64,000 nt of DNA from Escherichia phage vB_EcoS_VAH1. Positions 27,802-63,269 of the stretch are shown one piece after another. Both the position numbers and the translations under genes were made by a program. The notes beneath the pieces are model-generated. The model did not search any database. It was not told where the DNA came from and saw only the letters and a list, made by a program, of their open reading frames with translations. The stretch lies in sequence record MK373792.1. One strand, written 5' to 3'. Each line of letters opens with the position of its first letter. Position 1 is the first letter of the stretch.

Positions 27802-27929
27802 ATATTTAGAAGCATTCAAATACTTGTTTAAACACTTTTAAATATGTTTCCAAATTAGATAACTATTATACCAGGTTTTAATGCACTGAGCAAGTCAAAT
27901 TTTGAAGAACTTGCTCAGTGCTGTATTAG

Positions 27930-28205: not shown

Positions 28206-28295
28206 TAGTTAATTCCTTCATCAATTTATATAACTATTATATCAGAAATTTAAAGTAAAAGGCAAGTACATTTTTAAAAATTCTGTTTGGAGGAG

Positions 28296-28502
28296 CTAAA
28301 CTCCGGATTCTTCGGCCAAGTCTAGACTAATAAGAGTTATAGCCATAATTGCTGCACCGTGTTCTTTTTCTCCGGTGTTTTTAGCCGAGTCTATAATACC
28401 CTTAATCTGTTCGTAATAACTTTTTACTTCTTGTTCAATGCCTGCCTCAGCTATCATGCCTTTAGCCATGAATCGTTGCATGGTAATTTCAGGATTAGCC
28501 AT
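28296..28502 (-). CDS. hypothetical small protein
   Basis: 68-aa ORF. Confidence 0.35.
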   Translation of the reverse strand: MANPEITMQRFMAKGMIAEAGIEQEVKSYYEQIKGIIDSAKNTGEKEHGAAIMAITLISLDLAEESGV

Positions 28503-28691
28503 GTTGTTTCTCCAGTTTCATTTTTAATAGTTTACAGATGAAATCAACGTCTTCATCTGTGCCTAAGTCTCTATCCTCAAGAGTCGCCTTGAAGTTTTTC
28601 GTCAATTCCATGAGGATGACTTCCCTAGAACGACGTGTTGGCGGAGGTGGATGTCTATACATCTTATTTCCTTAATTTGGTAGGGATTATA

Positions 28692-29375: not shown

Positions 29376-29398
29376 AGTTTATGACTTTCTAATTAAGC

Positions 29399-29476
29399 TG
29401 GTGGCTCCCCGAGGATTCGAACCTACGTACCTTCCAGTTATGAGCTGGGTGCTCATACCATATGAGCTTGAGAACC
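29399..29476 (-). tRNA. tRNA-Met type (anticodon CAT); third CAT tRNA, could be the Ile2 (lysidine) species
   Basis: D-arm GCTC...GAGC, arm CCCAG-CTCATAA-CTGG, T-arm GTAGG-TTCGAAT-CCTCG. Confidence 0.55.
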
Positions 29477-29482
29477 AGAATT

Positions 29483-29571
29483 TGGCGGAAGAAGTGGGAA
29501 TCGAACCCACAAGGCTATATTTCAAACCGACAGATTAGCAATCTGCTGCAATACCGTTATGCTATTCTTCC
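29483..29571 (-). tRNA. tRNA-Ser (anticodon GCT), type II
   Basis: Perfect acceptor GGAAGAA/TTCTTCC, arm GCAGA-TTGCTAA-TCTGT, long variable arm. Confidence 0.6.
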
Positions 29572-29592
29572 GAATTTATAAGATATATTATA

Positions 29593-30162
29593 TTAGAAAT
29601 TTAGCTTCATGGCAAGAAAATTTTTCAAGTTTTCGGTAGACATCTCATCCACATCTATAGGAGAAACAAACCCATTTAATTGTCTAGCAAACTTTTCACC
29701 AGCAGGATCATTATCCCCAACAGCTACCAATTTAAAAGGTAGTAATTTCAATTGCTTTAACAATGCTTTTCCGGGGGAAGAACCCAACATTGCCAGGGCT
29801 GGATAACCAGCGTTATGTAACGCAACTGCCTTAAATACAGATTCAGCAATCAATACTACTTTTTCATCTCCATTGAGAGTTTCTAGTCCCCATACACACT
29901 GTGTAGTAGAATAAGTAAAATATCTAGCTTCAAGGGGGCACTTACCATGACCTTTTGGAGCAGAAGGATTATAAGTCTGATAGCCTCTCAACATCCCAGA
30001 GAAGTCATACAATGGGACTGTTAGCCATCCTTCCGGGCTTAACCAGCAATGATATTTATCTGTATCAAACCCTCTAGATAAGAGATGTTCTGTTAGTTCA
30101 TCAACAGTCATACTAGATTCCTCTCTCAAATTTATAAATATATTATACAGAGAATTTAGCAT
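29593..30162 (-). CDS. stand-alone Toprim-domain protein
   Basis: VVLIAESVFKAVALHNAGYPALAMLGS...KLVAVGDNDPAGEKFA matches DnaG-type Toprim; no zinc finger or helicase part. Confidence 0.5.
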   Translation of the reverse strand: MLNSLYNIFINLREESSMTVDELTEHLLSRGFDTDKYHCWLSPEGWLTVPLYDFSGMLRGYQTYNPSAPKGHGKCPLEARYFTYSTTQCVWGLETLNGDEKVVLIAESVFKAVALHNAGYPALAMLGSSPGKALLKQLKLLPFKLVAVGDNDPAGEKFARQLNGFVSPIDVDEMSTENLKNFLAMKLNF

Positions 30163-30280
30163 TCAAGCAATTGAATTTTTTAACTTTTTAGAGGAAAATC
30201 ACAGGATGCTTAAGGGTAGCAGGTAAGTGGTCAGGACCGAAATTTGTGACCCCACTAAAAATCTGGGGGCAATTTTTAAA

Positions 30281-30320
30281 GACCCCTTGACATTTTCGCT
30301 GGGGTAGTGTAAAGTATATG
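30281..30320 (+). promoter_or_regulatory. sigma70-like promoter for the plus-strand island
   Basis: TTGACA at ~30281, ~17-18 nt spacer, TGn + TAAAGT; AGGAGG RBS before ATG at 30368. Confidence 0.5.
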
Positions 30321-30367
30321 TTATGGATGAGTGATCAAAGAGACACACATTTTCTATATACTAGGAG

Positions 30368-31360
30368 GTGTCAAAAATGACAGAAGAAGTAGCTAAGAGT
30401 CCTGAGACCGTCGCTAGCGTTGCAGCAGAACTGCACCGTCACGAGGAATCAGATAAGAAAAAGTGGGAGAAGGTCAGAGCCTACGAAGAAAAACATCGTG
30501 AACACGATGATGAAGAAGATGACGATGAGCATTGTCATAAATATGGAAAACATAAAATGCAAGAACCAGTAAACGTATTTACTAGTGGCTTCCCTGGCCT
30601 ACTTGGTGGTTACCCAGCAAACGCAAGTGCTTTCGGTGGCGAAGGTATGGGACTATTCGGAGCTATCCTAATCGGTGCTCTATTAACAGGCGGGTTCGGT
30701 GGTTTCGGTGGATTCGGTGGACGTGGTGTAGTTGGTGATGGTACCGCAGTTGATGCAGTACTTCAGAACCAAGATACCGCTAGTATTCTAGCAGCTATTA
30801 ACACTACTCGTACAGAAGCTAACCAGGGTACTGGAGCTGTTTTAAGCGCAGTTAACAATGGTTTTAGCCAGACATCCCAAAACCAGAGCCGTGATACTCA
30901 GTCTGTACTAACTACGATCTATGGTACAGGTGCTAATCTGTCTAATCAGATCTGCCAGGAAACTCGCAACGTTATTCAGGGTCAGTTCGATCTTTCTCGC
31001 CAGATTGATCAATCTTTCGCAGCTAACCAGATAGCTCGTGCACAAGATAAGTTTGATTCTGCACAGATCGCTTTCCAGCAGACTTTACAAACTAATAACC
31101 AGTTTGCCGCTGTTCAGGCTCAGATGTGTGCTAACCAGAACTCTCTGGAACGTCAGATCGCTGAATGTTGCTGTGAACTTCAGACTGCGATCGCTGGTGT
31201 AACTACTGCGCGTATTCAGGATGAGTTAGATGCATGTCGCCTACGTGAAGCAATCGCTGCGGGTAACGGTGCTAACGGTCAGGTAATTAATCAAATCGCT
31301 GTAAGTCTTGGTGCTATCACTCAGACTCTGGCTGGTCTGCAGGCTAAACTGCCGGCTTAA
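30368..31360 (+). CDS. acidic/His-rich N-domain + glycine-zipper TM segment + Gln/Asn/Ala-rich helical C-domain protein; function unknown
   Basis: DDEEDDDEH; GLFGAILIGALLTGGFGGFGGFGG; Q/N/T-rich tail with CCC cluster; codon usage unlike neighbours. Confidence 0.55.
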   Translation: MSKMTEEVAKSPETVASVAAELHRHEESDKKKWEKVRAYEEKHREHDDEEDDDEHCHKYGKHKMQEPVNVFTSGFPGLLGGYPANASAFGGEGMGLFGAILIGALLTGGFGGFGGFGGRGVVGDGTAVDAVLQNQDTASILAAINTTRTEANQGTGAVLSAVNNGFSQTSQNQSRDTQSVLTTIYGTGANLSNQICQETRNVIQGQFDLSRQIDQSFAANQIARAQDKFDSAQIAFQQTLQTNNQFAAVQAQMCANQNSLERQIAECCCELQTAIAGVTTARIQDELDACRLREAIAAGNGANGQVINQIAVSLGAITQTLAGLQAKLPA

Positions 31361-31381
31361 TATTAAGGGGAGGAGCCCATT

Positions 31382-31798
31382 ATGAGTAAATATGGTTTTG
31401 TAAATAACGGACTTAATCAAAGTATGGGCTCCCAGCAGCCCATTCCGGGTCTGGATAACCCCTACTTACAACAATTGCAACAGCGTTTAGCAGAAGCGCA
31501 ACAGATGCAGCAACAACTCCAGCAAAACCCTGGAAGTGTGAGTCCTATGCAAATGATGCAGCAAATGAGCGGGCAGTCGCAAATGCCTCAACAAATGCAG
31601 CAACAGGTGCCGCAGCAGCAAGCTCAGCAGCAAACCCAACAACCGCAGGTTTCTGCGGAAGGACAGGCAGTACTAGCCCTTTTCGAAGACTTCGCAAAGA
31701 CAGAGGATGGTAAGCAGCTTGTATCACTTATGGGTAAGTTTAATAGCTTCTGCCAAAGCCAGGTTGCAAAAGCTCAAAATAGTGGTAATAACTCCTAA
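31382..31798 (+). CDS. Gln/Met-rich low-complexity (prion-like) protein
   Basis: QQLQQRLAEAQQMQQQLQQNP...MQMMQQMSGQSQMPQQMQQQVPQQQAQQQTQQ; GGAGG RBS. Confidence 0.5.
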   Translation: MSKYGFVNNGLNQSMGSQQPIPGLDNPYLQQLQQRLAEAQQMQQQLQQNPGSVSPMQMMQQMSGQSQMPQQMQQQVPQQQAQQQTQQPQVSAEGQAVLALFEDFAKTEDGKQLVSLMGKFNSFCQSQVAKAQNSGNNS

Positions 31799-31807
31799 GG
31801 AGGAATT

Positions 31808-32002
31808 ATGTGTTGCAGAAAATCTGTTTCGTGCTGCCCAATGCCTGTAGCACGTTGTTGCTCTCCAGCAATGTTTACGCAAATACCGGCGTTCAATCCG
31901 TTTGCCTTTAAGCCTACTCTTATCCTGCCCCCTAGAGTAGATTTTCAGTCAAGATTGGCCTCCCGTATGGGTGGTTGCTGTAATAAGAGTATATGGTTCT
32001 GA
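31808..32002 (+). CDS. small Cys-rich protein (CC pairs)
   Basis: MCCRKSVSCCPMPVARCCSP...GGCCNK; AGGAGG RBS. Confidence 0.35.
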   Translation: MCCRKSVSCCPMPVARCCSPAMFTQIPAFNPFAFKPTLILPPRVDFQSRLASRMGGCCNKSIWF

Positions 32003-32018
32003 AGAACCAAACAATAAA

Positions 32019-32053
32019 GCCCCTAAGTCTTTCGACTAGGGGCTTTTCTTTTA
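32019..32053 (+). terminator. rho-independent terminator closing the plus-strand island
   Basis: GCCCCTAAGTC...GACTAGGGGC hairpin followed by TTTTCTTTT. Confidence 0.6.
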
Positions 32054-32060
32054 TCTTAAA

Positions 32061-32097
32061 TACAGAAAAGCCCTGCGCTCTCCAGGAAACGCAGGGC
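32061..32097 (-). terminator. rho-independent terminator for the SPFH gene (convergent)
   Basis: GCCCTGCG...CGCAGGGC 8-bp stem with T-run on the minus strand. Confidence 0.6.
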
Positions 32098-32122
32098 TTA
32101 TTTCAGATGTTACATGCGGGTA

Positions 32123-33070
32123 TTATTTATTACGCATATCCATAATCATTTGGCCATCATAGCCAGTGCCAACCACAGTCTGCGGTACACCACCTTGGTA
32201 TTTCTGAGCACGAATCATTTCAACTTCCAGTTGCTTCCAGCGAATCATCTCAGGAGTAATGGTACGTTGCAACGCGGCGTTAGCTTCAGCTTCTTTCTTA
32301 GCTGCGTACAGTTTGGCATCTGCGTCACGCTCATTGGCAATAGCTTGGTTATTACGAGCTTCGCGATCTGCTTCTGCTTGTTTAACCTTCTGCTGTGCTT
32401 CTTGTTCAACACGAGCCAGTTCAGCTTTCGCAGCATTAACTTGCTCTTCACGAACTTTGGTATTCTGTACCTGTTCCATGATTACCGGTGGCAAAGTAAT
32501 ATCCTGAAGGAATACCTGCTTAACTGTATAACCATATGGGCGTGCATACTCTTCAACTTCCTGTTGAATTGCAGTTTGCAATTGAGCCTGAATTTTAGCA
32601 TCAAACAAATCTTGTGCTTTAGGTACAGACTTACCAAACTCACGAATAGTAGACAGTAATTTTTCAGTTACATATTTATCTAGTGCTTGATCCTGGGTGC
32701 CTGCGTTAATACGGTTAATCGGTGCCTTAGAACCATCAAATTGTAACATAACAGTCAGGTCAACAGTGGATTTAAACTTATCTTGGCTAGGAACCTGAAG
32801 TTTATCTAATTTTACAGCAATATCTTTTGTACTAAAAGTATCGAAAGATGCAAATGGGTTTACAAGATGGAAACCAGGTAATACTGGGTTAGGATCTACT
32901 TTACCTAGAAATGTTTGGGTTTTAACCGTACCATCAGAAACAATAGTATATGAATTAAAAGCTAGGATTAAACCTGCTAAACCAACTACAGCACCAATAC
33001 CCCAACGTTTAATAGTGCGAATTACTTTTTGCTCAGAAGTCAGTTCTTTCATATTTTTAGTATTAAACAT
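32123..33070 (-). CDS. SPFH/Band-7 (prohibitin/stomatin/HflKC-like) membrane protein
   Basis: N-terminal TM (WGIGAVVGLAGLILAF), SPFH-like core, long Ala/Glu/Gln coiled-coil tail. Confidence 0.7.
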   Translation of the reverse strand: MFNTKNMKELTSEQKVIRTIKRWGIGAVVGLAGLILAFNSYTIVSDGTVKTQTFLGKVDPNPVLPGFHLVNPFASFDTFSTKDIAVKLDKLQVPSQDKFKSTVDLTVMLQFDGSKAPINRINAGTQDQALDKYVTEKLLSTIREFGKSVPKAQDLFDAKIQAQLQTAIQQEVEEYARPYGYTVKQVFLQDITLPPVIMEQVQNTKVREEQVNAAKAELARVEQEAQQKVKQAEADREARNNQAIANERDADAKLYAAKKEAEANAALQRTITPEMIRWKQLEVEMIRAQKYQGGVPQTVVGTGYDGQMIMDMRNK

Positions 33071-33104
33071 ATATTTCCTTTGTTTTAGTTACAGTTAATA
33101 AAAT

Positions 33105-33179
33105 TGGCCGAGGTGACAGGATTCGAACCTGCATAAAGGAATTTAGAAGACTCCTGCCTCTCCCTTAGACTACACCCCG
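33105..33179 (-). tRNA. tRNA-Arg (anticodon TCT)
   Basis: Acceptor CGGGGTG/CACCTCG, arm GGAGT-CTTCTAA-ATTCC, T-arm GCAGG-TTCGAAT-CCTGT. Confidence 0.55.
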
Positions 33180-34711: not shown

Positions 34712-35179
34712 TTAAGTTTTAGTGACAACAGGTTTATAAAACGTATGTCCCTTAATCTTAGTTGTTTTCTTAAACTTCTTTGTCCAGTAAGGTTTATCTT
34801 TACCACTATGGAAGTATAGTGCTCCATATGTAGGATCTTGTGGTAAATCAACGTAGTATATCACTCTAGCTAAATTCTTAGCGGTTTGCCAAGCCTCATC
34901 AGTTTTATCAACTTTTGGTCTCTTAGATACCCAAGAGAACTGGTTAGACTGATATACTACTTTACAGTAGGAATCTGGGAATTTACCGGAGTTTACACGG
35001 TTTTTAGTAACGTGTGCAATCGCCGTCATTCCCTTTATGCCCTCACCACGACTTTCGAAATAGATATTTTTAGCAATGCAATCTATTTCTTTTGCATCGT
35101 GCGATGCCTGACTACTAAAGCTGAAGGTAAGGGCAGCTACTAAAAGCAAAGCTGCCTTCATTCTTTTTACTCCTGCCAA
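34712..35179 (-). CDS. secreted cell-wall hydrolase (SleB/Hydrolase_2-like)
   Basis: Signal peptide; IAKNIYFESRGEG...AIAHVTKNRVNSGKFPDSYCKVVYQSNQFSW. Confidence 0.6.
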   Translation of the reverse strand: MAGVKRMKAALLLVAALTFSFSSQASHDAKEIDCIAKNIYFESRGEGIKGMTAIAHVTKNRVNSGKFPDSYCKVVYQSNQFSWVSKRPKVDKTDEAWQTAKNLARVIYYVDLPQDPTYGALYFHSGKDKPYWTKKFKKTTKIKGHTFYKPVVTKT

Positions 35180-35484
35180 TCATATTCAACACGATTGGGA
35201 TTTTCTTTATACCCTAAGTCAAGCAAATCATTACGCATATTTTGCTTAGCTACTGGGTTCGAGGTTACTAGTACCACTTTCTTTGGTCTCTGCCCAAATT
35301 CTAAGAGTAAGCGAAGAATTTGATAACCTTCCATACCATCTACAGCCAAGTCATTATCCATATAAACGAAATGGCCTGTGGTATCAGTTTTATTCAGAAA
35401 CTCTACAGCGGCTTCTGGGGTTCGAATGATAATGTCCATTCCGTGAAGATTACGCACATCATCAATCAAAATATGAAAAGTCAT
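35167..35484 (-). CDS. hypothetical protein with receiver (CheY-like) fold features
   Basis: ILIDDV, YMDNDL...GMEGYQILRLL, VVLVTS pattern; weak. Confidence 0.3.
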   Translation of the reverse strand: MTFHILIDDVRNLHGMDIIIRTPEAAVEFLNKTDTTGHFVYMDNDLAVDGMEGYQILRLLLEFGQRPKKVVLVTSNPVAKQNMRNDLLDLGYKENPNRVEYDWQE

Positions 35485-46059: not shown

Positions 46060-46731
46060 ATGGTAAGAAAGAAAATAACTACAGAAGATGTGAACTTAGC
46101 ACTTGCTCCCAGAGGAATAATTATGCTAAGCACGTATATATCAGCTAAATCCAATGCTATATTTAAGTGCTCTAATGGGCATAGTTGGGAGGCTAGAGTA
46201 GATAATGTAAAAGGTGGGAGAGGTTGCCCTTATTGTGCTAGTCGTACTTTAGATCTTAAAGAGGTAAATGAATCCTTAGCTGCTCGTGGAATAAAGATGG
46301 AAGGTAAATACATCAATTCTAAGAGTAAAATTATGTTCAGCTGTGAGAATAATCATAGGTGGGAGTCTACACTTGATAGTGTTAGAAACCATAGTTCTGG
46401 TTGTCCTATATGTTTATTAGAGAAGGATAATTATCCTACTAACGTATATATTTTAATAAGTAATGTGGGAACCAAAATAGGAGTGTCTAGCAGAACTAAA
46501 GATAGACTCAGAGATATTAAAACTTCTTCTAACATACATGATTTAAAAATATTTAAGGAATATAGCTTTTCAGATAGATCAAAAGCTATACGTATTGAAA
46601 GAGAGGTCCATTTACAGTTTAAGGAATATAATTGTCAGTACAAAGATTTTGATGGTGCTACAGAATTTTTTAATATTGAGCCAGAAGTAGTAGCAAGGTT
46701 TATTGAGGAAATAATTAATGACAGAGAATGA
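46060..46731 (+). CDS. zinc-ribbon repeat + T5orf172 (GIY-YIG-like) protein
   Basis: CSNGHSWE...GCPYCA and CENNHRWE...GCPIC ribbons; C-terminus matches 888..1268 and 14690..15301. Confidence 0.6.
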   Translation: MVRKKITTEDVNLALAPRGIIMLSTYISAKSNAIFKCSNGHSWEARVDNVKGGRGCPYCASRTLDLKEVNESLAARGIKMEGKYINSKSKIMFSCENNHRWESTLDSVRNHSSGCPICLLEKDNYPTNVYILISNVGTKIGVSSRTKDRLRDIKTSSNIHDLKIFKEYSFSDRSKAIRIEREVHLQFKEYNCQYKDFDGATEFFNIEPEVVARFIEEIINDRE

Positions 46732-48550: not shown

Positions 48551-48590
48551 CAGCCGGGTTGCTAGTCGACCTGGCTTTTATTTTATTTGC
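48551..48590 (+). terminator. rho-independent terminator after nrdD
   Basis: AGCCGGG...CCTGGCT hairpin followed by TTTTATTTTATTT. Confidence 0.5.
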
Positions 48591-48643: not shown

Positions 48644-48925
48644 ATGAGCGAATTGCTTCCTAAAGTAGATGTCTCCCATCTTGGGGAGCCTAGTGAAGAA
48701 CGTAAGGCTCTAGATTGGTTGGGCGGATTTGATTATCGTCGTGTTGTTGCAACATGGAATGATAAGAAAGTTAAGAAGTTTCGGGTACATTATGTAGGTA
48801 AAGACAAGTGGCTCTGGATTGATTATGAAGAATCGAAGGGGTCTACTAAGGCTGTGAAAATTTATCGTATGTATGGGTATTATTATGCTCACTGTGATAA
48901 GAATGAATTTACAGTACAGAACTAA
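48644..48925 (+). CDS. hypothetical protein
   Basis: 93-aa ORF behind promoter. Confidence 0.45.
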   Translation: MSELLPKVDVSHLGEPSEERKALDWLGGFDYRRVVATWNDKKVKKFRVHYVGKDKWLWIDYEESKGSTKAVKIYRMYGYYYAHCDKNEFTVQN

Positions 48926-48934: not shown

Positions 48935-49138
48935 ATGAAAAACGTAAAACATCTTAAATATCGCTTAATTTACAACGGACGTATGGAAACAGAAGATCTG
49001 GCCCAGTTAGCTATTAATTCTAATGAGGTTACAGTGCGTGCGCTGGCAATTGAAAAGTTGCGTGCCTCTTATGAAAATCGTGTTATGGAACTAGAGGAGA
49101 AACTTTATGGCATTCTCGAAGCCGATGCTACCAGATAA
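48935..49138 (+). CDS. hypothetical small protein
   Basis: 67-aa ORF. Confidence 0.35.
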   Translation: MKNVKHLKYRLIYNGRMETEDLAQLAINSNEVTVRALAIEKLRASYENRVMELEEKLYGILEADATR

Positions 49139-49328
49139 GGGTTTAAACGCCGCTTTGGAAAACGCATTAATGCAGCACTGGGAAACTGGCTATAAGGATG
49201 GTGTTGAATCCTGCGCTACTATGCTAGAAGTTATTGCTAATACCTTAATGGAGAAAGGCAATAAAGAATTAGCTGAGCTATTAGACAGTATTGGGCAAAA
49301 CTTCAGAGAACAGGTGAAAAATGCGTAG
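49107..49328 (+). CDS. hypothetical small protein
   Basis: 73-aa ORF. Confidence 0.35.
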   Translation: MAFSKPMLPDKGLNAALENALMQHWETGYKDGVESCATMLEVIANTLMEKGNKELAELLDSIGQNFREQVKNA

Positions 49329-50136
49329 ATTAATTGTTATTAGCGGTGCAGGTTTGAGTGTTGAAAGTGGTGTACGAGCTTTTCGTACTGATACTGCTAG
49401 TGGTAAAGCATTGTGGGATGATTATGACTTAGAAGAGGTATGTAATATTCATGCCTTTCGTGGTAATTTTTATCATAAAACCCACACGTTTTACAACAAA
49501 CGTCGTGAAGAGTTAGAAACTGTTGAACCCAATCTTGCACACTTGCGTATTGGTGAATGGTATAAGAAATATCCAGGTCAAGTAGTAAACTTGACTACCA
49601 ACGTTGATGACCTTATTGAGCGTGCTGGCGTTCCACATAGTGACATTCTGCACATTCATGGGTATTTAAAAGAGGTTGTTGTAGCTGATAGCTACAATAG
49701 TAGTAATAAACGAATTATTGATGTTGGGTATAGCTCTATTGACCCAGATGATTATAAATGGGTTAAACCTAATGTAATCTTCTTCGGGGAACATGCTCCA
49801 GCATATGCAGAAATGTACAATGTTTTTGATGGTATTACCAGTCAAGATATGATCATTGTGGTTGGTTGCTCTAACCAAGTAATTAACTTCTACTGGGAAT
49901 TATTTCCTGTTCTTAATCTGACTGCTGCAAAACTTATGGTAGTTAACTACTATGATAGTGCTCTAGCGGTGGAACCAGGCTATCAAGGTATGACTCGTAG
50001 TGAGATGTACCAGCTGGAAGAACGTGGTATCCCTTACTGGAGTAAAGGTGCGATAGATGCTTTCAATGATCCTGATTTTATTGCTCGTGTAGAAGCTCAT
50101 TTAGAGGGTAGACCTTATGTGTCGGGAAATAAGTAA
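49321..50136 (+). CDS. Sir2-family (sirtuin-like) NAD-dependent protein lacking the zinc-ribbon cysteines
   Basis: GAGLSVESGVRAFR, TTNVDDLIERAG, LHIHGYL, PNVIFFGE, IIVVGCSNQV in sirtuin order. Confidence 0.65.
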   Translation: MRRLIVISGAGLSVESGVRAFRTDTASGKALWDDYDLEEVCNIHAFRGNFYHKTHTFYNKRREELETVEPNLAHLRIGEWYKKYPGQVVNLTTNVDDLIERAGVPHSDILHIHGYLKEVVVADSYNSSNKRIIDVGYSSIDPDDYKWVKPNVIFFGEHAPAYAEMYNVFDGITSQDMIIVVGCSNQVINFYWELFPVLNLTAAKLMVVNYYDSALAVEPGYQGMTRSEMYQLEERGIPYWSKGAIDAFNDPDFIARVEAHLEGRPYVSGNK

Positions 50137-50629
50137 TACTCCAATTATTTTTCTAGATATTGATGGGGTGCTCAATTCGAGCATCTCCCACCATCATGCG
50201 CCTGATGATGAAAAGATTTTCTTTGGAAGTGACTGGGTTTTCAAACCGCTTCTCAAGGCTTTTCAGGACTTTATTCGTCCTTCTCCAATAATGATTGTTG
50301 GGGTATCTTCATGGTTCTCTGTCAGGAATGAGATGGAGAACGTTCAGATTATGACCGGATTAGATCTTATCGATCGTTTTCTAGGTACAACGGATTTTAC
50401 TGGTGGTGGGCTATCTAGGGGTAATTCTGTTCTTCGCTTCGTTGAAAAGCATAAGCTCAAACATTGGTGTGTGCTGGATGACGCTGGTGCTATGATGTAT
50501 CAGTATCCAACGGTTATAGTCAACGGTAGAACTGGAATAAATCTTCAAGATTTAAGAGCTGTTAGCTATATGTTAGAATTTAGTCCAGATCTTGAAATGT
50601 GTAAAGCCCTACAACAATTTAAGGTATAA
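50117..50629 (+). CDS. HAD-superfamily phosphatase-like protein
   Basis: IIFLDIDGVLN (DxDG motif I) near N-terminus. Confidence 0.5.
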   Translation: MCREISNTPIIFLDIDGVLNSSISHHHAPDDEKIFFGSDWVFKPLLKAFQDFIRPSPIMIVGVSSWFSVRNEMENVQIMTGLDLIDRFLGTTDFTGGGLSRGNSVLRFVEKHKLKHWCVLDDAGAMMYQYPTVIVNGRTGINLQDLRAVSYMLEFSPDLEMCKALQQFKV

Positions 50630-50631
50630 AT

Positions 50632-51060
50632 ATGTTCAATAATGTATTCTCTAAAGAAGCTAACCCAATATTGGTTAATTTTTGGCGTACTCTTCCAGCC
50701 AACCTGTACAATGAGGCTATTAATGCTCTGAAAATATGGTGTGAGAATAATGAAATCTCCTTTGCTTTTAAGGGTGAGATTGAAGAAGCTCCCTGTATTG
50801 GTTTAATTGTGCAGGTAGAGGATGGTCTGGAAGAGATTGTCGGCTGGAAAGAGTTGGATGAAATGGGGTTGGTTTTTGCATTAAACTATAAGCTATTTAT
50901 GCCCAATAAACACCGTATTGTTGTTAATTATAAAACCAGTGAATCTCCGGGCTTTCAAGTTAATGAACATTACGGTTGGTCTTACTCACCGGAAGAAGTA
51001 AATGATGGTATCCAGAAACTTCGTCGTTTTGGTTATCAAATTCCTGGTTTAACCGCCTAA
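50632..51060 (+). CDS. hypothetical protein, tandem paralog A
   Basis: Shares EEAPCIG...W.EL.EMGL..ALN..LF.P pattern with 51070..51462. Confidence 0.45.
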   Translation: MFNNVFSKEANPILVNFWRTLPANLYNEAINALKIWCENNEISFAFKGEIEEAPCIGLIVQVEDGLEEIVGWKELDEMGLVFALNYKLFMPNKHRIVVNYKTSESPGFQVNEHYGWSYSPEEVNDGIQKLRRFGYQIPGLTA

Positions 51061-51069
51061 GGGGGCACA

Positions 51070-51462
51070 ATGGAACAAGTATATTGGCGTCAGATTGATC
51101 CTAGTTTGGTGAAGCGTGCGGAGAAGCTGCTACAACGTTGGTTGGGGGTAAGACAAGCTTCCTTCACTTTTCCGGAGCAGCAAATAGACGATCCCTGTAT
51201 TGGTGTTTTCCTATCAGGCTACGCTAGGGAATGGGAACTGGATTGGAATGAATTGTCTGCTATGGGTTTAATTGTTGCACTAAATTTCTCTTTGTTCCAT
51301 CCACGTGGTTTTGCCATATGTTGTGTGCCTGATGATGGTTGTTCGCCCCATCTTTTACAGGTGGAAGATGATATTTGGGAGTACACTCCAGATATTCTCA
51401 AAGAAGCTAAAGAACAATTAAATCGTGTTGGGATTTATGTTCCAGGCCTGAATGATGAATGA
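51070..51462 (+). CDS. hypothetical protein, tandem paralog B
   Basis: DDPCIG...WNELSAMGLIVALNFSLFHP; paralog of previous gene. Confidence 0.45.
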   Translation: MEQVYWRQIDPSLVKRAEKLLQRWLGVRQASFTFPEQQIDDPCIGVFLSGYAREWELDWNELSAMGLIVALNFSLFHPRGFAICCVPDDGCSPHLLQVEDDIWEYTPDILKEAKEQLNRVGIYVPGLNDE

Positions 51463-51547: not shown

Positions 51548-52054
51548 TTGTCGTTGACAATTTGGATGGATTATGTAATAATATATGTATTGGAGGTGAG
51601 GATGTCATTCACACAGCAAGAACTTTTAGATAACTTCCGATATGAAGATGGTAAGTTATTTAGAACTACAGGAAGAAATGCAGGGAAAGAATGTTGTGTC
51701 TCTACTGGTAACGGATATTATCGTATATCTCTAGGGAATAGGACTATGCTTCGGCATAGAGCAATATTTTTAATGCATCATGGATACTTACCTGATTTAG
51801 TAGATCATGTGAATACTGTAAAAGGTGATGATCGTATTGAAAATCTTAGAGAGCAGACAGTATCCGGTAATCTAAGAAATATCAAATATAAGAAAGGAAT
51901 GCATGTTTACCCTTCTGGTAGTAATAACTGGCAAGTAGTATTTACTATTAACCGTAAACGTATAGTTAAAGGAACATATGACAACTATGAGGTTGCATGT
52001 TCTATGGCCAAGATGTTTAGAGGTCAACTATACGGTAGGGAATCAATCCAGTAA
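51548..52054 (+). CDS. HNH homing endonuclease (HNH_3/AP2-type)
   Basis: LRHRAIFLMHHGYLPDLVDHVN...N..NL; own promoter with two TTGACA elements. Confidence 0.7.
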   Translation: MSLTIWMDYVIIYVLEVRMSFTQQELLDNFRYEDGKLFRTTGRNAGKECCVSTGNGYYRISLGNRTMLRHRAIFLMHHGYLPDLVDHVNTVKGDDRIENLREQTVSGNLRNIKYKKGMHVYPSGSNNWQVVFTINRKRIVKGTYDNYEVACSMAKMFRGQLYGRESIQ

Positions 52055-55379: not shown

Positions 55380-55596
55380 AAAATGGGAAACAAGGAAGTT
55401 TCCAGTAAAAGAACGTAAAGTTCCTATTTATGATACTTCGGAAAAGCTATGTAGGGTGGTACCATCTAGATTAGCTGGCATCCCTAACATATCCGAGTGG
55501 TTACTTAAACAACGGAGGACTAGCGTATCCCTTCGCATAGGGTTTGAGTTAGATAAAGTATATGCTGAACTTTCTTCTTTGCTCAAGGAACAATAA
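55354..55596 (+). CDS. hypothetical small protein
   Basis: 80-aa ORF. Confidence 0.3.
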   Translation: MLEMTVKNKKWETRKFPVKERKVPIYDTSEKLCRVVPSRLAGIPNISEWLLKQRRTSVSLRIGFELDKVYAELSSLLKEQ

Positions 55597-56168
55597 TGTT
55601 TATAAGAATTCCCGAATTTCCTGACTATGCAGTGAATGAAAATGGAGAGGTGTACTCTTTTCTCTCCTACAAGTTTCTTACTCCAGGTCAAAATACTGCT
55701 GGGTACTTACAAGTTAATTTAATGAAGGACGGCACCCCTATAAATGTGAGGGTGCATAGGTTAGTAGCTTATTGTTTTGGGCTACTTCCTGGGTTAGAAT
55801 CAGAATTGGTAGTAGACCATATAAACGATGATAAGTTAGATCCTAGACTATCTAACTTGCAGGTATTAACCTACAGAGCTAATGCAATAAAATTTCATAA
55901 TAAAAATTGGAGAGAACATCCAGATTTCCTAGTAGAAATTAAGAAATTAGAAAGTATGGGCATAACTAAAGCAGCTGCATCTTATAGGCGCAGGGCTATG
56001 TTTAAATATATTGTGGCTGTTCCCTCTAGTGATACTCTAACCTTAGAATTAATAGAATCTACATATCAGAAAACCAATTCTTGGGGAAAAACTGCTAGGG
56101 CTCTAGGCTTTAACAGTGCTCCTGCTATTAGATACAGGTATAATAAGCTGAAAGCAGCTTCTTTATAA
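55596..56168 (+). CDS. HNH homing endonuclease (NUMOD4/HNH_3-type)
   Basis: IPEFPDYAVNENGEVYS...GYLQVNL...HRLVAYCF...VDHINDDKLD..SNLQVL. Confidence 0.7.
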   Translation: MFIRIPEFPDYAVNENGEVYSFLSYKFLTPGQNTAGYLQVNLMKDGTPINVRVHRLVAYCFGLLPGLESELVVDHINDDKLDPRLSNLQVLTYRANAIKFHNKNWREHPDFLVEIKKLESMGITKAAASYRRRAMFKYIVAVPSSDTLTLELIESTYQKTNSWGKTARALGFNSAPAIRYRYNKLKAASL

Positions 56169-58477: not shown

Positions 58478-59303
58478 ATGACCAATGTAAAAGAATTTAT
58501 TAAACGCTGTCAAGAAGCATATTATCAAGGTATGTCTTTAATCTCTGATGAGGAATATGATTGCCTAGTAAAACGCTTCCCGTTAGAGGAAGAGATCGGG
58601 CCTAAGGGTGATATTCCACATCTGTATCGTATGTATTCTTTACAGAAAGTTTACTATAACCGTGGAGATAAACCACCATTCAATCCTTTAGGTCAGGTGG
58701 AAACCGATAAGTTAGATGGTTGTGCAATTTCTCTGCTATATATTTAATGGCGAATTTGTTCAAGCACTAACTCGTGGTAATGGTATTCTGGGGAATGATG
58801 TCACAAGCAACGTAAGATTGCTGAACATCCCTAAAAAGATTTCCCAAAAAGTACCTACTCAAATCACTGGTGAAGTTCTAATTACAAAAGAAGTAGAAAA
58901 TAAACGTAACTTTGCCTCTGGTGCTATTAACCTCAAAGATAGTGATGCTTTTGTACAACGTATCGGGGAAGGTGGTTTAATCTTCGTTGCATACGGTATC
59001 CAGTGTTCTGCTGAATCTGTAGGTATTACAGAAGCGTATTTAAAAGATATGCTTTGGCTAGAGAATGAGAACTTCTTAACAGTTGTTATGTGCGTTCCTC
59101 CTTTAAAATGGATTCCGACGGACGGTAAAGTTGTTCGTATTAATGACAACAACAAATTCTTCCGGGAAGGCTGGACTAATAAATTCCCTCGTGGGGCATT
59201 CGCTATTAAAGAGGATGAAGAAGGCGAGATTACAACTCTTACTAAAGTTGAATGGCAGGTAGGGGCTTCTGGTAAAGTTCCAGTTGGTTATTTCGAACCG
59301 TAA
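58478..59303 (+). CDS. lig: NAD-dependent DNA ligase, adenylation part, internally frameshifted (track ORFs 58478..58747 and 58716..59303)
   Basis: KLDG adenylation lysine in first ORF; TRGNGILGNDVTSN and onward in second ORF; junction at CTATATATTTAATGG. Confidence 0.75.
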
Positions 59304-59309
59304 TAATTG

Positions 59310-59453
59310 ATTGATGCCACAATTGTTAAAGCGACTCTTAATAACGTTGATTATATTAACTCTCTCGATCTAGAGATCGGTTGCCAGATTCGAGTGATTC
59401 GTGCTGGTGGTGTAATCCCGTGCATAGTAGAGCGAGTATACGATTATACATAA
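59310..59453 (+). pseudogene. ligase OB-fold remnant, in frame after tandem TAA TAA stops
   Basis: [44 protein letters not shown] matches the LigA OB domain (ATLHN...RAGDVIP) but has no conventional start. Confidence 0.5.
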
Positions 59454-59641: not shown

Positions 59642-60424
59642 TTGATGAAAATCGAAATTCCAACACAATGTCCCTCTTGTGGTTCTAAGCTAGATCTTGT
59701 CAACGGACAATTATTCTGTCGTAATAAGTCCAACTGTCCAGCGCAATCAAGTAAGTTAATTGAGAACTTCTGTACAAAAATGAAGTTAAAGGGCTTTGGC
59801 CCGAAAACTATTGAGAAGCTGGAGCTGACGAAGATTTCAGAACTATTTTACCTAACCGAAGAAGATTTGGTTAGAGCAGTGGGTAGCAAGGTTGCCGCTA
59901 AATTAATTAGCGAATTAAATACTAAAGTTCGCGGAGACATTGACTTTGGTTCAGTTCTCGGTTCTTTAGGAATCCCTCTAATTGGAGAGGTTGCAGCAAA
60001 GAAATTATCCCAAAATTGCACTAGCTTCCACGATGTGAAGGCTGACGGCAAGGCTGGAGAAAACTATAAAGCCTGGCTAAATTCCCCACAAGGCAAGGAT
60101 GTTATCGAATTACCGTGGAAATTCACAACTGGTGTTAAAGGTGCTAAAGCTGAGGTCATCATTACTGATGGTCTAGTAGCCCAACCAAACGGAATAACGG
60201 TATGTATTACCGGATCTTTGCAAGATTTTGCAAATAGAACGGATGCAACAAACTATCTAGAAGGTCTAGGGTATACTGTTAAAAAATCAGTTACCAAAGA
60301 CGTTAAATACCTAATCTGTGAGGATGAATCTAAGCGTTCTTCCTCATCTTATAAGAAAGCCGAAACGAATGGGATAGAAATCCTGTCGATTAAAGAACTA
60401 TTGGAGAAAAATAATAATGTCTAA
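59642..60424 (+). CDS. lig: NAD-dependent DNA ligase, C-terminal part (Zn finger-HhH-BRCT) as a separate ORF
   Basis: CPSCGS...C zinc finger then HhH and BRCT-like regions; own TTGCTA-TATAAT promoter at ~59605-59630. Confidence 0.75.
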   Translation: MMKIEIPTQCPSCGSKLDLVNGQLFCRNKSNCPAQSSKLIENFCTKMKLKGFGPKTIEKLELTKISELFYLTEEDLVRAVGSKVAAKLISELNTKVRGDIDFGSVLGSLGIPLIGEVAAKKLSQNCTSFHDVKADGKAGENYKAWLNSPQGKDVIELPWKFTTGVKGAKAEVIITDGLVAQPNGITVCITGSLQDFANRTDATNYLEGLGYTVKKSVTKDVKYLICEDESKRSSSSYKKAETNGIEILSIKELLEKNNNV

Positions 60425-61236: not shown

Positions 61237-62739
61237 TTTAGAAGGCACGAAAGCGTGCAAAGGAGAATGACCTTGTTTAACGTGCAAGCTGTAGTGTTGA
61301 AGATGCTTCTAGCTTCCGAACAGAAGCAAATAGCATTGGAAACATTCTCAAAACTGCATAAAGATCATTTTAATGACGCTTTCTCCTCAATTTACCAAGC
61401 CGTCCAGAATTATTATAAAAAATATAACACAATGCCGTCCATTGACGCACTTATGCTTGAAGCTAATAGGAACGCCCGCCTTTCTCAAGCTCTAGTCGTC
61501 TTAGCTAACACTCAAATTCCAGAAGTGAGCATGGAACAGGCACTTGAAGTCCTAGAGGCCGAATATACACAGGATTTATTCCTGAAGCTTCTAGAAACAG
61601 ACGTGCTTCAAGATTTAACAATGCTGGATCAGGGAGAAATTCTCAACCGAGTTGCCTCCCTTCACTTAAAATTAGAAGAGAAAGTAACGAATACTGGAAA
61701 AGTATTCAACGCAGATAACATGCGTATTTTCCAGAGAGAAGAAGATACCAAACTGAACTTAATCGCTCTTGGTATTTGTAATGAGTTCGACGCTCAAATC
61801 GGTTTAGCTCGCACAGAAACGTTACTGCTTGGTGGTTGGCGTGGTACTGGTAAATCCATTATCTGTTCAAACATACAGGTTCAGCAATATTTGAATGGGG
61901 ATATTGCTCCATACTTCTCAATTGAGATGAAAGAACATGAAGTATTTAGACGTAATCTAGCCATGTTAGCTGGTGTATCAGCATTAGCAATGCGTAATAA
62001 TACTCTAGAAGGTGCAGCTCTGTTGAGATTAGCCAGAACTAGAGCTAGAATGTTTAATGGTGGTGAAGAGCTTTTCGACAACTTCGTTAAACAGTATACA
62101 ATGGCTAAGATGAGTGATTTCTACGATATGGAGAGTAAGCTAATAGAGGGATATGAACTACATACTCCTATGATTATCGTTTATGACCCTGAACTGTCCA
62201 TTACAACAGTTGACGTAGAATTAAATAAATTAGTTGCTAGATATGGTGATAAAGTTACAGTAGCTCTACTTGACTATATTAACCAAACCCGACTTCCAGA
62301 CTCTAAAACCATTGATATGTATGACTGGAAAGAACAGATGGTTGTTAGCTCGTCTTTCAAATCTATCTGCCAGAAACATAACGTGGCTGGTGTAGCTCCT
62401 TACCAGATCGATCAAGATGGTAGAACACGTATGTCAAAGGGTATTCTTGATTCCGCAGATATGGCTGCTAATCTTAATGCTGCAAAAGCTGATAATGGTC
62501 AAGGTGCTATTATGTTTGACTTCGTTAAGACTCGTTCTTCTGATAGCGTGAAGTTTATGCCTAAAATGAACTGGGAAACCTTGCGGATGGATAACACTAC
62601 CAACCTAGCAATGGAAGATATATCTCAAATGGAAGCTGAGTTCATTATCCCTATTGAGAAGGATAAGCCGGCTCAACCTAAACGTGCTAAGAAAGACAAA
62701 ACTGAAAATTCAACAGGTGAACAGGCCAGCGATATATGA
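61216..62739 (+). CDS. DnaB-like replicative helicase (true start probably downstream of the terminator)
   Basis: Walker A GGWRGTGKS, Walker B IIVYDPELS, RecA-like C-domain. Confidence 0.55.
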   Translation: MLLPLFAFRRHESVQRRMTLFNVQAVVLKMLLASEQKQIALETFSKLHKDHFNDAFSSIYQAVQNYYKKYNTMPSIDALMLEANRNARLSQALVVLANTQIPEVSMEQALEVLEAEYTQDLFLKLLETDVLQDLTMLDQGEILNRVASLHLKLEEKVTNTGKVFNADNMRIFQREEDTKLNLIALGICNEFDAQIGLARTETLLLGGWRGTGKSIICSNIQVQQYLNGDIAPYFSIEMKEHEVFRRNLAMLAGVSALAMRNNTLEGAALLRLARTRARMFNGGEELFDNFVKQYTMAKMSDFYDMESKLIEGYELHTPMIIVYDPELSITTVDVELNKLVARYGDKVTVALLDYINQTRLPDSKTIDMYDWKEQMVVSSSFKSICQKHNVAGVAPYQIDQDGRTRMSKGILDSADMAANLNAAKADNGQGAIMFDFVKTRSSDSVKFMPKMNWETLRMDNTTNLAMEDISQMEAEFIIPIEKDKPAQPKRAKKDKTENSTGEQASDI

Positions 62740-63269
62740 TAACACAGGAAAGGCTAAAAGAGTTATTTGATTACTCCCCAGGAACTGGGGAGTTTACTAG
62801 AAAAGTATCTAGAGGTAATCAGAAAGCTGGTAGTATAGCTGGTTCTTTAAGAAAAGATGATTATATATGTATATGGGTAGATGGAAAGCCTTACTATGCG
62901 CATCAACTAGCTTTTCTCTATATGGAAGGTTATTTACCTGAAGAAGTAGACCATATAAACCGTATACGAAGTGATAATCGTTGGGTTAACCTTAAAGATT
63001 CTTCTCACCAAGAGAATAGCAGGAATAAAGCAGCTAAAAGTAAATCAGGGTATATAGGAGTTAGTTGGAATAAACAAAGGCAAAAATGGCAAGTTCAACT
63101 AAGAGATACCAATAAAAAGAAAATATTCGGTGGATATTTTGAGTACCAGAATTTAGAATCAGCCGTAGATAAGATTAATAAGCTACGATTACAATTTCAT
63201 GGGGAAAATGCTATTCAAGAAATATTCGACCCGTCTAATTATCCTGCATTAGAGGAGATAAATTCATGA
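62736..63269 (+). CDS. HNH homing endonuclease (HNH_3/AP2-type)
   Basis: MITQERLKELFDY... paralog of 6316..6852 and 10167..10706. Confidence 0.75.
   Translation: MITQERLKELFDYSPGTGEFTRKVSRGNQKAGSIAGSLRKDDYICIWVDGKPYYAHQLAFLYMEGYLPEEVDHINRIRSDNRWVNLKDSSHQENSRNKAAKSKSGYIGVSWNKQRQKWQVQLRDTNKKKIFGGYFEYQNLESAVDKINKLRLQFHGENAIQEIFDPSNYPALEEINS

What the first reader, a model, noticed from the sequence alone, without database searches (positions are those of the whole stretch)
49321..51462. Sir2-like protein, HAD phosphatase and two tandem paralogs downstream of nrdD
A sirtuin-fold protein with the NAD-binding and catalytic His motifs but without the zinc-ribbon cysteines is followed by a DxDG HAD phosphatase and two paralogous unknowns. 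Sir2 domains act as deacylases, ADP-ribosyltransferases or NADases; the same phage depends on NAD+ for its ligase. A phage module that modifies host proteins or manipulates NAD+/ADP-ribose pools (possibly to counter NAD-depleting defence) is plausible but untested.
Basis: partly seen in the sequence, partly recalled or inferred. Interest (0 to 1): 0.7.

Follow-up and report, generated by a model that had tools for sequence, protein, structure and literature searches.

The report
T5-type phage sirtuin–HAD phosphatase operon
This is the well-conserved, already annotated Sir2-like/HAD-phosphatase gene cluster of T5-like phages; a 2022 comparative-genomics paper predicted it to be an NAD+-dependent RNA-end repair module, and nobody has tested its biochemistry.

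Summary
Downstream of nrdD, a T5-like phage (about 95% identical to phages SP15 and 8sent1748) encodes four proteins in a row:
- a CobB-like sirtuin with no zinc-ribbon cysteines;
- an overlapping capless HAD phosphatase of family HAD_SAK_2;
- two paralogous DUF7415 proteins.

All NAD-binding, catalytic and class-III acyl-pocket residues of the sirtuin are invariant across the phage clade. It is not a defence-type SIR2 NADase.

The module is not new. The sirtuin is annotated in T5 (T5.102). Iyer et al. 2022 (PMC9503650) describe the sirtuin–"Swiss-army-knife" HAD neighbourhood, typified by phage SP15, and predict that the sirtuin removes RNA 2'-phosphates as KptA/Tpt1 does.

My context survey agrees in part. 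In V5/Mydo-like phages the same sirtuin sits between RNA ligase 1, cREC, a kinase and a DNA ligase. T5-likes carry a distal cREC but no RNA ligase, kinase or NAD+-rebuilding genes.

One context I did not find in the literature searched: HAD_SAK_2 homologues sit in an operon with the NARP1 genes Adps and Namat in ChuuTotoro-like phages. This points to an ADP-ribose-phosphate substrate for the phosphatase.

DUF7415 has no recognisable fold and is linked only loosely to the sirtuin.

No experimental study of the phage sirtuin was found. Moderate interest; the feature is already known.

The parts
48552..48576 (+). Terminator-like hairpin after nrdD; upstream boundary of the transcription unit
   Evidence: 10-bp stem plus T-run. 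T5 annotates a terminator and then a promoter at the equivalent place.
48644..48925 (+). Small ORF (93 aa), unknown function; first gene of the unit
   Evidence: phrog_7953, no Pfam match. Not homologous to SP15 gp123, which occupies this position there.
48935..49138 (+). Small ORF (67 aa), unknown function
   Evidence: phrog_5236; 100% identical to SP15 gp122.
49107..49328 (+). Small ORF (73 aa), unknown function; overlaps the sirtuin start
   Evidence: phrog_5827; 100% identical to SP15 gp121.
49321..50136 (+). Zinc-less class-III-type (CobB-like) sirtuin, homologue of T5.102
   Evidence: PF02146 E=1.2e-24. AF2 model pLDDT 90.9; best PDB match CobB 1S5P, TM 0.84. Invariant in the clade: GAG-S, FR, Y58/R61/R62, N94, D96, H113, V152. 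No zinc cysteines.
50117..50629 (+). Stand-alone capless HAD phosphatase (HAD_SAK_2), homologue of T5.105
   Evidence: PF18143 E=1.9e-20. Invariant D14, D16, S64, S65, R101, D121 in 23 homologues. Overlaps the sirtuin gene by 20 nt.
50632..51060 (+). DUF7415 protein a (two DUF7415 repeats), homologue of T5.106
51070..51462 (+). DUF7415 protein b, tandem paralogue, homologue of T5.107
   Evidence: PF24187 E=1.6e-30; 31% identity to protein a, E=4e-20.
35170..35484 (-). Distal cREC (cyclic-phosphate-processing receiver) protein, homologue of T5.084; candidate partner, inferred only
   Evidence: PF20274 E=3.8e-15. cREC lies adjacent to or within about 1 kb upstream of this sirtuin clade in V5/Mydo-like phages.

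Best explanation
The sirtuin and the HAD phosphatase form an early-expressed, NAD+-consuming nucleic-acid end-processing pair. This is the module Iyer et al. 2022 predicted.

Proposed mechanism (inferred, not shown):
1. The CobB-derived sirtuin uses its intact NAD+ site, its catalytic His and its anion-binding Tyr-x-x-Arg pocket to transfer ADP-ribose onto an RNA 2'-phosphate. Such phosphates arise when a cyclic phosphodiesterase such as the phage cREC protein opens 2',3'-cyclic phosphate ends left by host anticodon or other metal-independent RNases.
2. The sirtuin then releases 2'-OH RNA, nicotinamide and ADP-ribose 1'',2''-cyclic phosphate. This is the chemistry of Tpt1/KptA.
3. The capless HAD phosphatase either removes residual terminal phosphates from the RNA, or dephosphorylates the ADP-ribose-phosphate by-product to ADP-ribose after cREC opens the cyclic phosphate. 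The second option fits its NARP1 context better.

What is shown: the domain identities, the conservation of catalytic residues and the gene linkages. The substrates and the chemistry are inferred.

The two DUF7415 proteins are co-transcribed passengers or accessory factors of unknown role.
For: Active enzymes:
- The sirtuin's catalytic and NAD-binding residues are invariant in 21 clade members from several phage groups.
- The four HAD motifs are invariant in 23 homologues.

Conserved linkage with rearrangement:
- In Tequintavirus/Epseptimavirus-type loci the order is Sir2 then HAD, with 0-2 small ORFs between.
- In Erwinia phage KEY and contig L010 the order is HAD-x-Sir2.

RNA-repair neighbours in other lineages:
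- V5/Mydo-like phages carry metallophosphoesterase, RNA_lig_T4_1, cREC, AAA_33 kinase, Sir2 and DNA ligase in that order.
- In a 608-kb contig a zinc-containing relative lies 1.2 kb downstream of an RNA ligase 1 gene.

Other support:
- This window encodes cREC and 21 tRNAs.
- The published prediction names the SP15-type neighbourhood explicitly (PMC9503650 section 3.7.3).
- HAD_SAK_2 homologues are operonic with Adps-Namat. A Macro-domain ADPR-1''-phosphate phosphatase in the same operon position has been demonstrated experimentally (bioRxiv 10.64898/2026.01.28.702374).
- The Tyr-x-x-Arg pair that binds an anionic group in CobB/SIRT5 is retained. The step from this to phosphate binding is inference.
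Against: - T5-likes have no RNA ligase, no PNK-type kinase and no ATP-dependent ligase (tblastn of the window and the complete T5 genome). A complete repair pathway would therefore need host enzymes.
- The residues of the CobB acyl pocket that could be mapped are conserved or conservatively replaced: Y92/R95/H147/V187 correspond to Y58/R61/H113/V152, I131 to V95, and A76 to C41. V162 could not be placed with confidence. An ordinary lysine deacylase is therefore equally compatible with the sequence.
- The V5-like context may be synteny inherited within one lineage.
- No sirtuin has been shown to act on RNA.
- To my knowledge E. coli already has KptA.
- DUF7415 is unexplained.
Confidence: 0.4

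Rival explanations
1. The sirtuin is an ordinary NAD+-dependent lysine deacylase, a CobB-like desuccinylase/deacetylase. It resets acylation of host or phage proteins during early infection. The HAD phosphatase is functionally independent.
For: - The best sequence and structure matches are CobB, Sir2-Af1 and SIRT5.
- The NCBIfam partial hits are all deacylases.
- The mapped acyl-pocket and catalytic residues match CobB.
- A three-stranded remnant of the zinc ribbon is still predicted, so the small domain that forms the peptide cleft is kept.
Against: - It does not explain the conserved and rearranged linkage with HAD_SAK_2.
- It does not explain the embedding among RNA ligase, cREC and kinase genes in other phages.
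- To my knowledge the host already has CobB.
- NCBIfam scores are far below the equivalog cutoffs: 100 bits against 243.
- Loss of all four zinc ligands and the Q-to-T change in the TQN motif suggest a changed substrate.
Confidence: 0.25
2. The pair handles soluble NAD+/ADP-ribose metabolites as a counter-defence. For example, it would process ADPR-1''-phosphate, ADPR cyclic phosphate or NADP-derived products made by NAD-targeting immune systems.
For: - HAD_SAK_2 homologues (about 38% identity) are operonic with Adps and Namat in Serratia phage ChuuTotoro, phage ABPH49 and a JGI contig. In ChuuTotoro and ABPH49 the HAD gene overlaps the start of the Adps gene; in the JGI contig a 116-aa ORF lies between them.
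- NARP1 lies 5-8 kb from the sirtuin in V5-like phages, and persists next to Sir2 and DNA ligase where the RNA ligase is absent (L009, L067).
- Accessory enzymes in NARP1 operons are experimentally known: Macro Adpp and RyDEP.
- The phage ligase is NAD-dependent.
Against: - T5 and this window lack Adps, Namat and any NAPRTase, so ADP-ribose cannot be turned back into NAD+.
- A sirtuin consumes NAD+.
- The three HAD-NARP1 loci belong to one syntenic lineage, so they count as one event.
- No match to PADLOC models.
- No known anti-defence homology was found.
Confidence: 0.2
3. The pair is a two-step small-molecule pathway like CobB/CobT followed by CobC. The sirtuin transfers a (phospho/ADP-)ribosyl group from a pyridine nucleotide to a base or other acceptor, the HAD removes the phosphate, and the pathway belongs to the surrounding nucleotide-metabolism block.
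For: - The module sits between nrdD and the replication genes, next to phoH, nrdA, nrdB, thy and frd.
- Single-domain DUF7415 genes lie between nrdD and nrdG in Klebsiella T4-like phages.
- Iyer et al. describe CobB as a ribosyl-phosphate transferase in cobalamin synthesis.
Against: - No acceptor or product can be proposed from the sequence.
- A capless HAD more often acts on macromolecular or large substrates (my own knowledge of HAD classification).
- The contexts outside T5-likes are RNA repair or NARP1, not nucleotide synthesis.
Confidence: 0.07

Closest known systems
Sirtuin + 'Swiss-army-knife-like' HAD neighbourhood of Escherichia phage SP15 (Iyer, Burroughs, Anantharaman, Aravind 2022, Viruses 14:1977, PMC9503650)
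   Same: The same genes: the window is 95.5% identical to SP15 over this region. Same sirtuin clade and the same HAD family.
   Different: In this window the sirtuin and HAD genes overlap directly. SP15 and T5 have one or two small ORFs between them. In the passages read, the paper does not discuss the DUF7415 pair, the distal cREC of T5-likes or the HAD-NARP1 operon.
E. coli CobB / class III sirtuins (SIRT5, Sir2-Af1)
   Same: Same fold: TM 0.84 against 1S5P. Also shared are the NAD-binding motifs, the catalytic His, the Tyr-x-x-Arg pair and the pocket residues.
   Different: - All four zinc cysteines are lost, with a shortened ribbon.
- TQN has become TTN, and GTS has become GCS.
- There is an invariant Cys41 where CobB has A76.
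- Only about 25% identity.
- Scores lie far below the NCBIfam equivalog cutoffs.
Tpt1/KptA RNA 2'-phosphotransferase, with Cpd1 and Poa1p clean-up
   Same: Proposed chemistry only: NAD+-dependent removal of an RNA 2'-phosphate through an ADP-ribosylated intermediate. The cyclic phosphate is then opened (a cREC role) and ADPR-1''-phosphate is dephosphorylated (a HAD role). The neighbours in V5-like phages parallel the fungal/plant ligase pathway.
   Different: Unrelated fold: sirtuin Rossmann fold against ART fold. No activity has been shown. T5-likes lack the ligase and kinase steps.
NARP1-AP (Adps, Namat plus Macro-domain ADPR-1''P phosphatase Adpp; Osterman et al. 2026 preprint)
   Same: A phosphatase gene sits inside the NARP1 operon. 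In ChuuTotoro-like phages a HAD_SAK_2 homologue occupies that position.
   Different: The characterised phosphatase is a Macro domain, not a HAD. This window has no Adps or Namat.
Defence SIR2 NADases (ThsA, DSR1/2, SIR2-HerA; Pfam SIR2_2)
   Same: Sirtuin superfamily, NAD+ as substrate, and (to my knowledge) no zinc ribbon.
   Different: No PADLOC match. The Pfam match is to PF02146, not PF13289. All of the 50 best Foldseek matches shown are deacylase sirtuins.

Membership tests
Sirtuin family (Pfam SIR2 PF02146), class III / CobB-like | Match to the family profile above the curated cutoff | tested here: met
   87.7 bits against a cutoff of 24, E=1.2e-24, covering profile positions 1-178 of 180.
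Sirtuin family (Pfam SIR2 PF02146), class III / CobB-like | NAD+-binding GAGxS...SGIPxFR loop, N and D of the TQNID motif, catalytic His of HG | tested here: met
   G9 A10 G11 S13 S16 G17 F21 R22, N94, D96, H113 and G114 are invariant in 21 clade members. The Q of TQN is replaced by T.
Sirtuin family (Pfam SIR2 PF02146), class III / CobB-like | Four-cysteine zinc ribbon in the small domain | tested here: not met
   No Cys between H113 and K149 in any of the 21 sequences. Jumbo-phage relatives L065 and L066 keep CxxC...CxxC-type pairs. A three-stranded remnant is still predicted.
Sirtuin family (Pfam SIR2 PF02146), class III / CobB-like | Class III Tyr-x-x-Arg pair that binds an acidic acyl group | tested here: met
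   FYNKRR aligns with CobB FYNARR. Y58, R61 and R62 are invariant in the clade.
Sirtuin family (Pfam SIR2 PF02146), class III / CobB-like | Sirtuin fold | tested here: met
   AF2 pLDDT 90.9. Foldseek best match 1S5P, E=7.7e-18, TM 0.71 normalised to the query and 0.84 to the target.
Sirtuin family (Pfam SIR2 PF02146), class III / CobB-like | NAD+-dependent lysine deacylase activity | not testable with these tools
   Needs enzyme assays. NCBIfam equivalog cutoffs are not reached: 100 bits against 243.
Defence-associated SIR2 NADases (ThsA/DSR/SIR2-HerA type) | Match to defence-system SIR2 models or structures | tested here: not met
   No PADLOC family at E<=0.1. No defence SIR2 among the 50 best PDB matches shown.
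HAD_SAK_2 (PF18143), HAD superfamily phosphatase | Profile match above cutoff and the four HAD motifs | tested here: met
   74.1 bits against a cutoff of 27.5. Motif I D14-x-D16, motif II S64/S65, motif III R101 and motif IV D121-D122 are invariant or nearly so in 23 homologues.
HAD_SAK_2 (PF18143), HAD superfamily phosphatase | Occurrence as a domain of multi-domain 'Swiss army knife' RNA-repair proteins | tested here: not met
   A stand-alone 170-aa protein. All 35 homologues found are single-domain, 117-188 aa.
HAD_SAK_2 (PF18143), HAD superfamily phosphatase | Phosphatase activity on RNA terminal phosphates | not testable with these tools
   No solved homologue by sequence. The substrate is unknown.
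NAD+-dependent RNA repair system (Tpt1/KptA-like logic, Iyer et al. 2022) | Genomic linkage of the NAD+-using enzyme with an RNA ligase, a 5'-kinase and a cyclic phosphodiesterase | tested here: inconclusive
   Met in V5/Mydo-like phages. In this window only HAD (adjacent) and cREC (14 kb away) are present. There is no RNA ligase or kinase in the window or in complete T5.
NAD+-dependent RNA repair system (Tpt1/KptA-like logic, Iyer et al. 2022) | Removal of an RNA 2'-phosphate with formation of ADP-ribose 1'',2''-cyclic phosphate | not testable with these tools
   A biochemical assay is required.
NARP1 / NARP1-AP NAD+ reconstitution pathway | Presence of Adps (Prs-like) and Namat (Nampt-like) genes | tested here: not met
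   tblastn of both seeds against the window and the whole T5 genome gave no hit at E<=0.01.
DUF7415 (PF24187) | Profile match above cutoff | tested here: met
   114 and 105 bits against a cutoff of 27, with two repeats in each protein.

The most novel reading that the evidence does not exclude
The zinc-less phage sirtuin is the first sirtuin that works on nucleic acid. It would be an RNA 2'-phosphotransferase analogous to Tpt1/KptA, using the class-III Tyr-x-x-Arg pocket for phosphate. The phage HAD_SAK_2 proteins would be ADP-ribose-phosphate phosphatases that clear its by-product. In ChuuTotoro-like phages the same phosphatase would feed NARP1, making it a HAD-type counterpart of the Macro phosphatase of NARP1-AP.
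Probability: 0.3. Interest if true: 0.75.

Novelty: already known. Interest (0 to 1): 0.4.

Why it matters
If the predicted chemistry holds, it would add a new reaction class to the sirtuins: acting on RNA phosphate instead of acyl-lysine. It would also add a repair or healing arm to T5's strategies against tRNA-targeting defences, which to my knowledge already include its own tRNA set. T5 is a tractable model phage with an early, dispensable-looking operon, so the hypothesis is directly testable.

The HAD-Adps-Namat operon seen here suggests a second, non-Macro accessory phosphatase for phage NAD+ reconstitution.

As a sequence feature, the module is ordinary for T5-like phages. About 446 phage records match the region, 221 of them over at least 80% of it.

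Tried and rejected
- PADLOC scan of all four proteins: nothing.
- NCBIfam: only sub-threshold deacylase hits for the sirtuin.
- PDB sequence searches, single sequence and profile, for HAD and DUF7415: no meaningful hit.
- Profile search of 1.84 billion representatives with DUF7415: 49 hits. Fusions are sporadic and uninformative: DUF3850/ASCH, thymidylate kinase, Cox and others, one protein each.
- Search for RNA ligase, PNK-type kinase, ATP-dependent ligase, Adps, Namat, MazG and Band7 in the window and the whole T5 genome: none found, only cREC and a metallophosphoesterase.
- Literature searches for experimental work on phage sirtuins or T5 Sir2: none found.
- Burroughs & Aravind 2016 (NAR) could not be read in the library.
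- I considered a direct NAD+-regenerating role for the sirtuin (ADPR-1''-phosphate plus nicotinamide). I rejected it as thermodynamically unfavourable, from my own rough estimate rather than a tool result.
- Promoter and terminator scans are at background level, except for the hairpin after nrdD.
Full report
**Identity of the window.** The 2.6-kb region matches 446 phage records. The best are Salmonella phage 8sent1748 and Escherichia phage SP15, at 95.5-95.7% identity over the whole query. The gene order phoH | nrdD – small ORFs – Sir2 – HAD – two ORFs – HNH – origin-binding helicase is that of Tequintavirus. In T5 itself the genes are T5.102 (Sir2), T5.105, T5.106 and T5.107. They lie between an annotated promoter after the nrdD terminator and a terminator after T5.107, which makes one early transcription unit. 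The window has the same hairpin after nrdD, at 48552-48576.

**Check of the observation.** All four ORFs are present.
- The sirtuin (49321-50136) matches Pfam SIR2 at E=1.2e-24 and E. coli CobB at E=7e-18.
- The HAD protein (50117-50629) overlaps the sirtuin gene by 20 nt. It matches HAD_SAK_2, described as "HAD domain in Swiss Army Knife RNA repair proteins", at E=1.9e-20.
- The last two ORFs are paralogues (31% identity, E=4e-20). Each is made of two DUF7415 repeats.
It holds for all 21 clade members aligned.

**The sirtuin.**
- Homologues at 50-96% identity occur in T5-like siphoviruses, in V5/Mydo-like myoviruses of about 145 kb, and in Erwinia, Serratia and Klebsiella phages.
- Invariant across them are the NAD loop (GAG-S--SG--FR), Y58/R61/R62, T92-T93-N94-V95-D96, H113-G114, K149-P150-x-V152-x-F-F-x-E and G182-x-S184.
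- I mapped the CobB residues named in the engineered-variant PDB titles (A76, Y92, I131, V187) and the catalytic H147 through the HMMER alignment. This gives C41, Y58, V95, V152 and H113. V162 could not be placed with confidence. The mapped part of the acceptor pocket is CobB-like.
- The AlphaFold model (pLDDT 90.9) keeps a three-stranded sheet where the zinc ribbon was. It superposes best on CobB, then Sir2-Af1 and SIRT5, and no defence SIR2 appears among the 50 best matches shown. PADLOC finds nothing.
- More distant relatives on jumbo-phage contigs still have the cysteine pairs and the canonical TQN and GTS motifs. The zinc-less form (TTN, GCS) is therefore derived within phages.

**The HAD protein.** Motifs I-IV are invariant in 23 homologues. 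All homologues are small single-domain proteins. There is no cap domain beyond a roughly 20-residue loop. No solved homologue is detectable by sequence.

**DUF7415.**
- The family is small: 49 representatives at E<=0.001 among 1.84 billion.
- Single-repeat members lie between nrdD and nrdG in Klebsiella phage PKO111, and directly after rnlA in Aeromonas phage PX29.
- Divergent T5-likes (KEY, L010) have Sir2 and HAD without DUF7415. Others (L059, L061, L062) have Sir2 and DUF7415 with no HAD detected.
- The tie of DUF7415 to the sirtuin is therefore loose, and its role remains open.

**Context survey.** I collected 55 IMG/VR loci that carry this sirtuin clade and labelled the neighbours with phmmer seeds. 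Four patterns emerge.
1. T5-like: phoH | nrdD … Sir2 – HAD – DUF7415 ×2 – helicase. There are 0-2 small ORFs between Sir2 and HAD, and the order is inverted (HAD-x-Sir2) in KEY-like phages.
2. V5/Mydo-like: NARP1 genes on the opposite strand, then metallophosphoesterase – RNA ligase 1 – (cREC) – AAA_33 kinase – Sir2 – ATP-dependent DNA ligase.
3. A variant with NARP1 | Sir2 – DNA ligase – MazG and no RNA ligase.
4. Loci where no neighbour could be assigned a family.

A zinc-containing relative on a 608-kb contig lies 1.2 kb from an RNA ligase 1 gene.

The window also encodes a cREC protein at 35170-35484 and two calcineurin-like phosphoesterases. Neither the window nor complete T5 has an RNA ligase, a PNK-type kinase, Adps or Namat.

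**What is already published.** Iyer et al. [quoted passage not shown]
- a jumbo-phage type: sirtuin with 2H, Nudix, cREC and PIN genes (typified by Serratia phage BF);
- a V5/Mydo type: sirtuin with tRNA ligase, cREC, a kinase and MazG;

They propose that the sirtuin removes RNA 2'-phosphates in the manner of KptA. The associated esterases would either generate the 2'-phosphate or process the ADP-ribose cyclic phosphate. My survey reproduces types 2 and 3. I found no experimental study of any phage sirtuin.

**A context I did not find in the literature searched.** HAD_SAK_2 homologues (about 38% identity) are operonic with the Prs-like and NAPRTase-like genes in Serratia phage ChuuTotoro, phage ABPH49 and a JGI contig.
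- In ChuuTotoro and ABPH49 the HAD gene overlaps the start of the Prs-like gene. In the JGI contig a 116-aa ORF lies between them.
- These two genes are Adps and Namat of NARP1 (Osterman et al.).
- A 2026 preprint shows that some NARP1 operons carry a Macro-domain phosphatase. It converts ADPR-1''-phosphate, made by the aRES defence, into ADP-ribose.
- The HAD gene sits in the equivalent place. The three loci are one syntenic lineage, so this counts as one event.
- It does suggest that the phage HAD_SAK_2 subfamily acts on an ADP-ribose phosphate. That is also the by-product expected from Tpt1-like chemistry.

**Weighing the explanations.** Sequence and structure alone would say "CobB-like deacylase". 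Context says [quoted passage not shown]. The model that unites all contexts runs as follows:
1. The sirtuin plus NAD+ removes an RNA 2'-phosphate.
2. cREC and HAD convert the ADP-ribose cyclic phosphate to ADP-ribose.
3. NARP1, where present, rebuilds NAD+.

I give this model 0.4, the plain deacylase 0.25, a soluble-metabolite counter-defence role 0.2 and a small-molecule ribosyl-transfer pathway 0.07. The main weakness for T5-likes is the absence of a ligase and a kinase. There the pair could only heal ends or depend on host enzymes.

**Verdict.** The feature is real, conserved and intact. It was already annotated and already interpreted computationally, and its function is experimentally open.

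Noticed in passing
window 58478-59453: The NAD-dependent DNA ligase A gene is broken into three ORFs: 58478-58747 (carrying the KLDG lysine), 58716-59303 after a frame change, then an in-frame stop and 59307-59453. T5 ligA is a single 323-aa ORF. The DNA alignment is 96.7% identical with 6 gap openings. This means either assembly indel errors or a pseudogene. ligB (59642-60424) is intact.
   Followed up: partly
window 46060-46731 (+): A 223-aa ORF with treble-clef zinc fingers (DUF4379), a CapR homology domain and a T5orf172/MUG113 (GIY-YIG-like) domain. It is inserted between phoH and nrdD and overlaps the nrdD start. It is absent at this position in SP15 and T5, so it is probably a mobile endonuclease-like gene.
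   Followed up: partly
window 35170-35484 (-): cREC_REC (cyclic-phosphate-processing receiver domain) protein, 96% identical to T5.084, which is annotated only as hypothetical. The same family lies adjacent to or within about 1 kb upstream of the sirtuin in V5/Mydo-like phages.
   Followed up: partly
L068 6001-9217; L072 7001-10222; L073 7001-10569: HAD_SAK_2 homologues in an operon with the NARP1 genes Adps (Prs-like) and Namat (NAPRTase) in Serratia phage ChuuTotoro, phage ABPH49 and a metagenomic contig. These phages have no sirtuin upstream of their DNA ligase.
   Followed up: partly
NC_005859 T5.105, NC_048627 gp118 and many RefSeq records: Annotation error. The HAD phosphatase is labelled 'Sir2 (NAD-dependent deacetylase)', traceable to phrog_18062. 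DUF7415 proteins are labelled 'exonuclease' or 'tail tube protein' in several records.
   Followed up: yes
L011 4995-5213 (Klebsiella phage PKO111); L012 4989-5228 (Aeromonas phage PX29): Single-repeat DUF7415 proteins. One lies between nrdD and nrdG, overlapping both. The other lies immediately after RNA ligase 1 (rnlA). So DUF7415 travels independently of the sirtuin.
   Followed up: partly
L065 10001-10711; L066 9986-10708: Jumbo-phage relatives of the sirtuin keep the zinc-ribbon cysteine pairs and the canonical TQN and GTS motifs. L066 is 1.2 kb downstream of an RNA_lig_T4_1 gene, with an arginase-family gene between. L065 is followed by a nucleoside 2-deoxyribosyltransferase-like gene.
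   Followed up: partly
window 51602-52054, 55596-56168, 62736-63269: Several HNH homing-endonuclease genes. The one at 51602-52054 directly follows the module and is preceded by a strong promoter-like site at 51554-51582 (11 of 12 consensus positions).
   Followed up: no
window 19834-33179 (-): A cluster of 21 tRNA genes, typical of T5-like phages.
   Followed up: no
window 48644-48925: The first small ORF after nrdD is not homologous to the gene at that position in SP15 (gp123). The next two small ORFs are 100% identical to their SP15 counterparts, so this is a local gene replacement.
   Followed up: no
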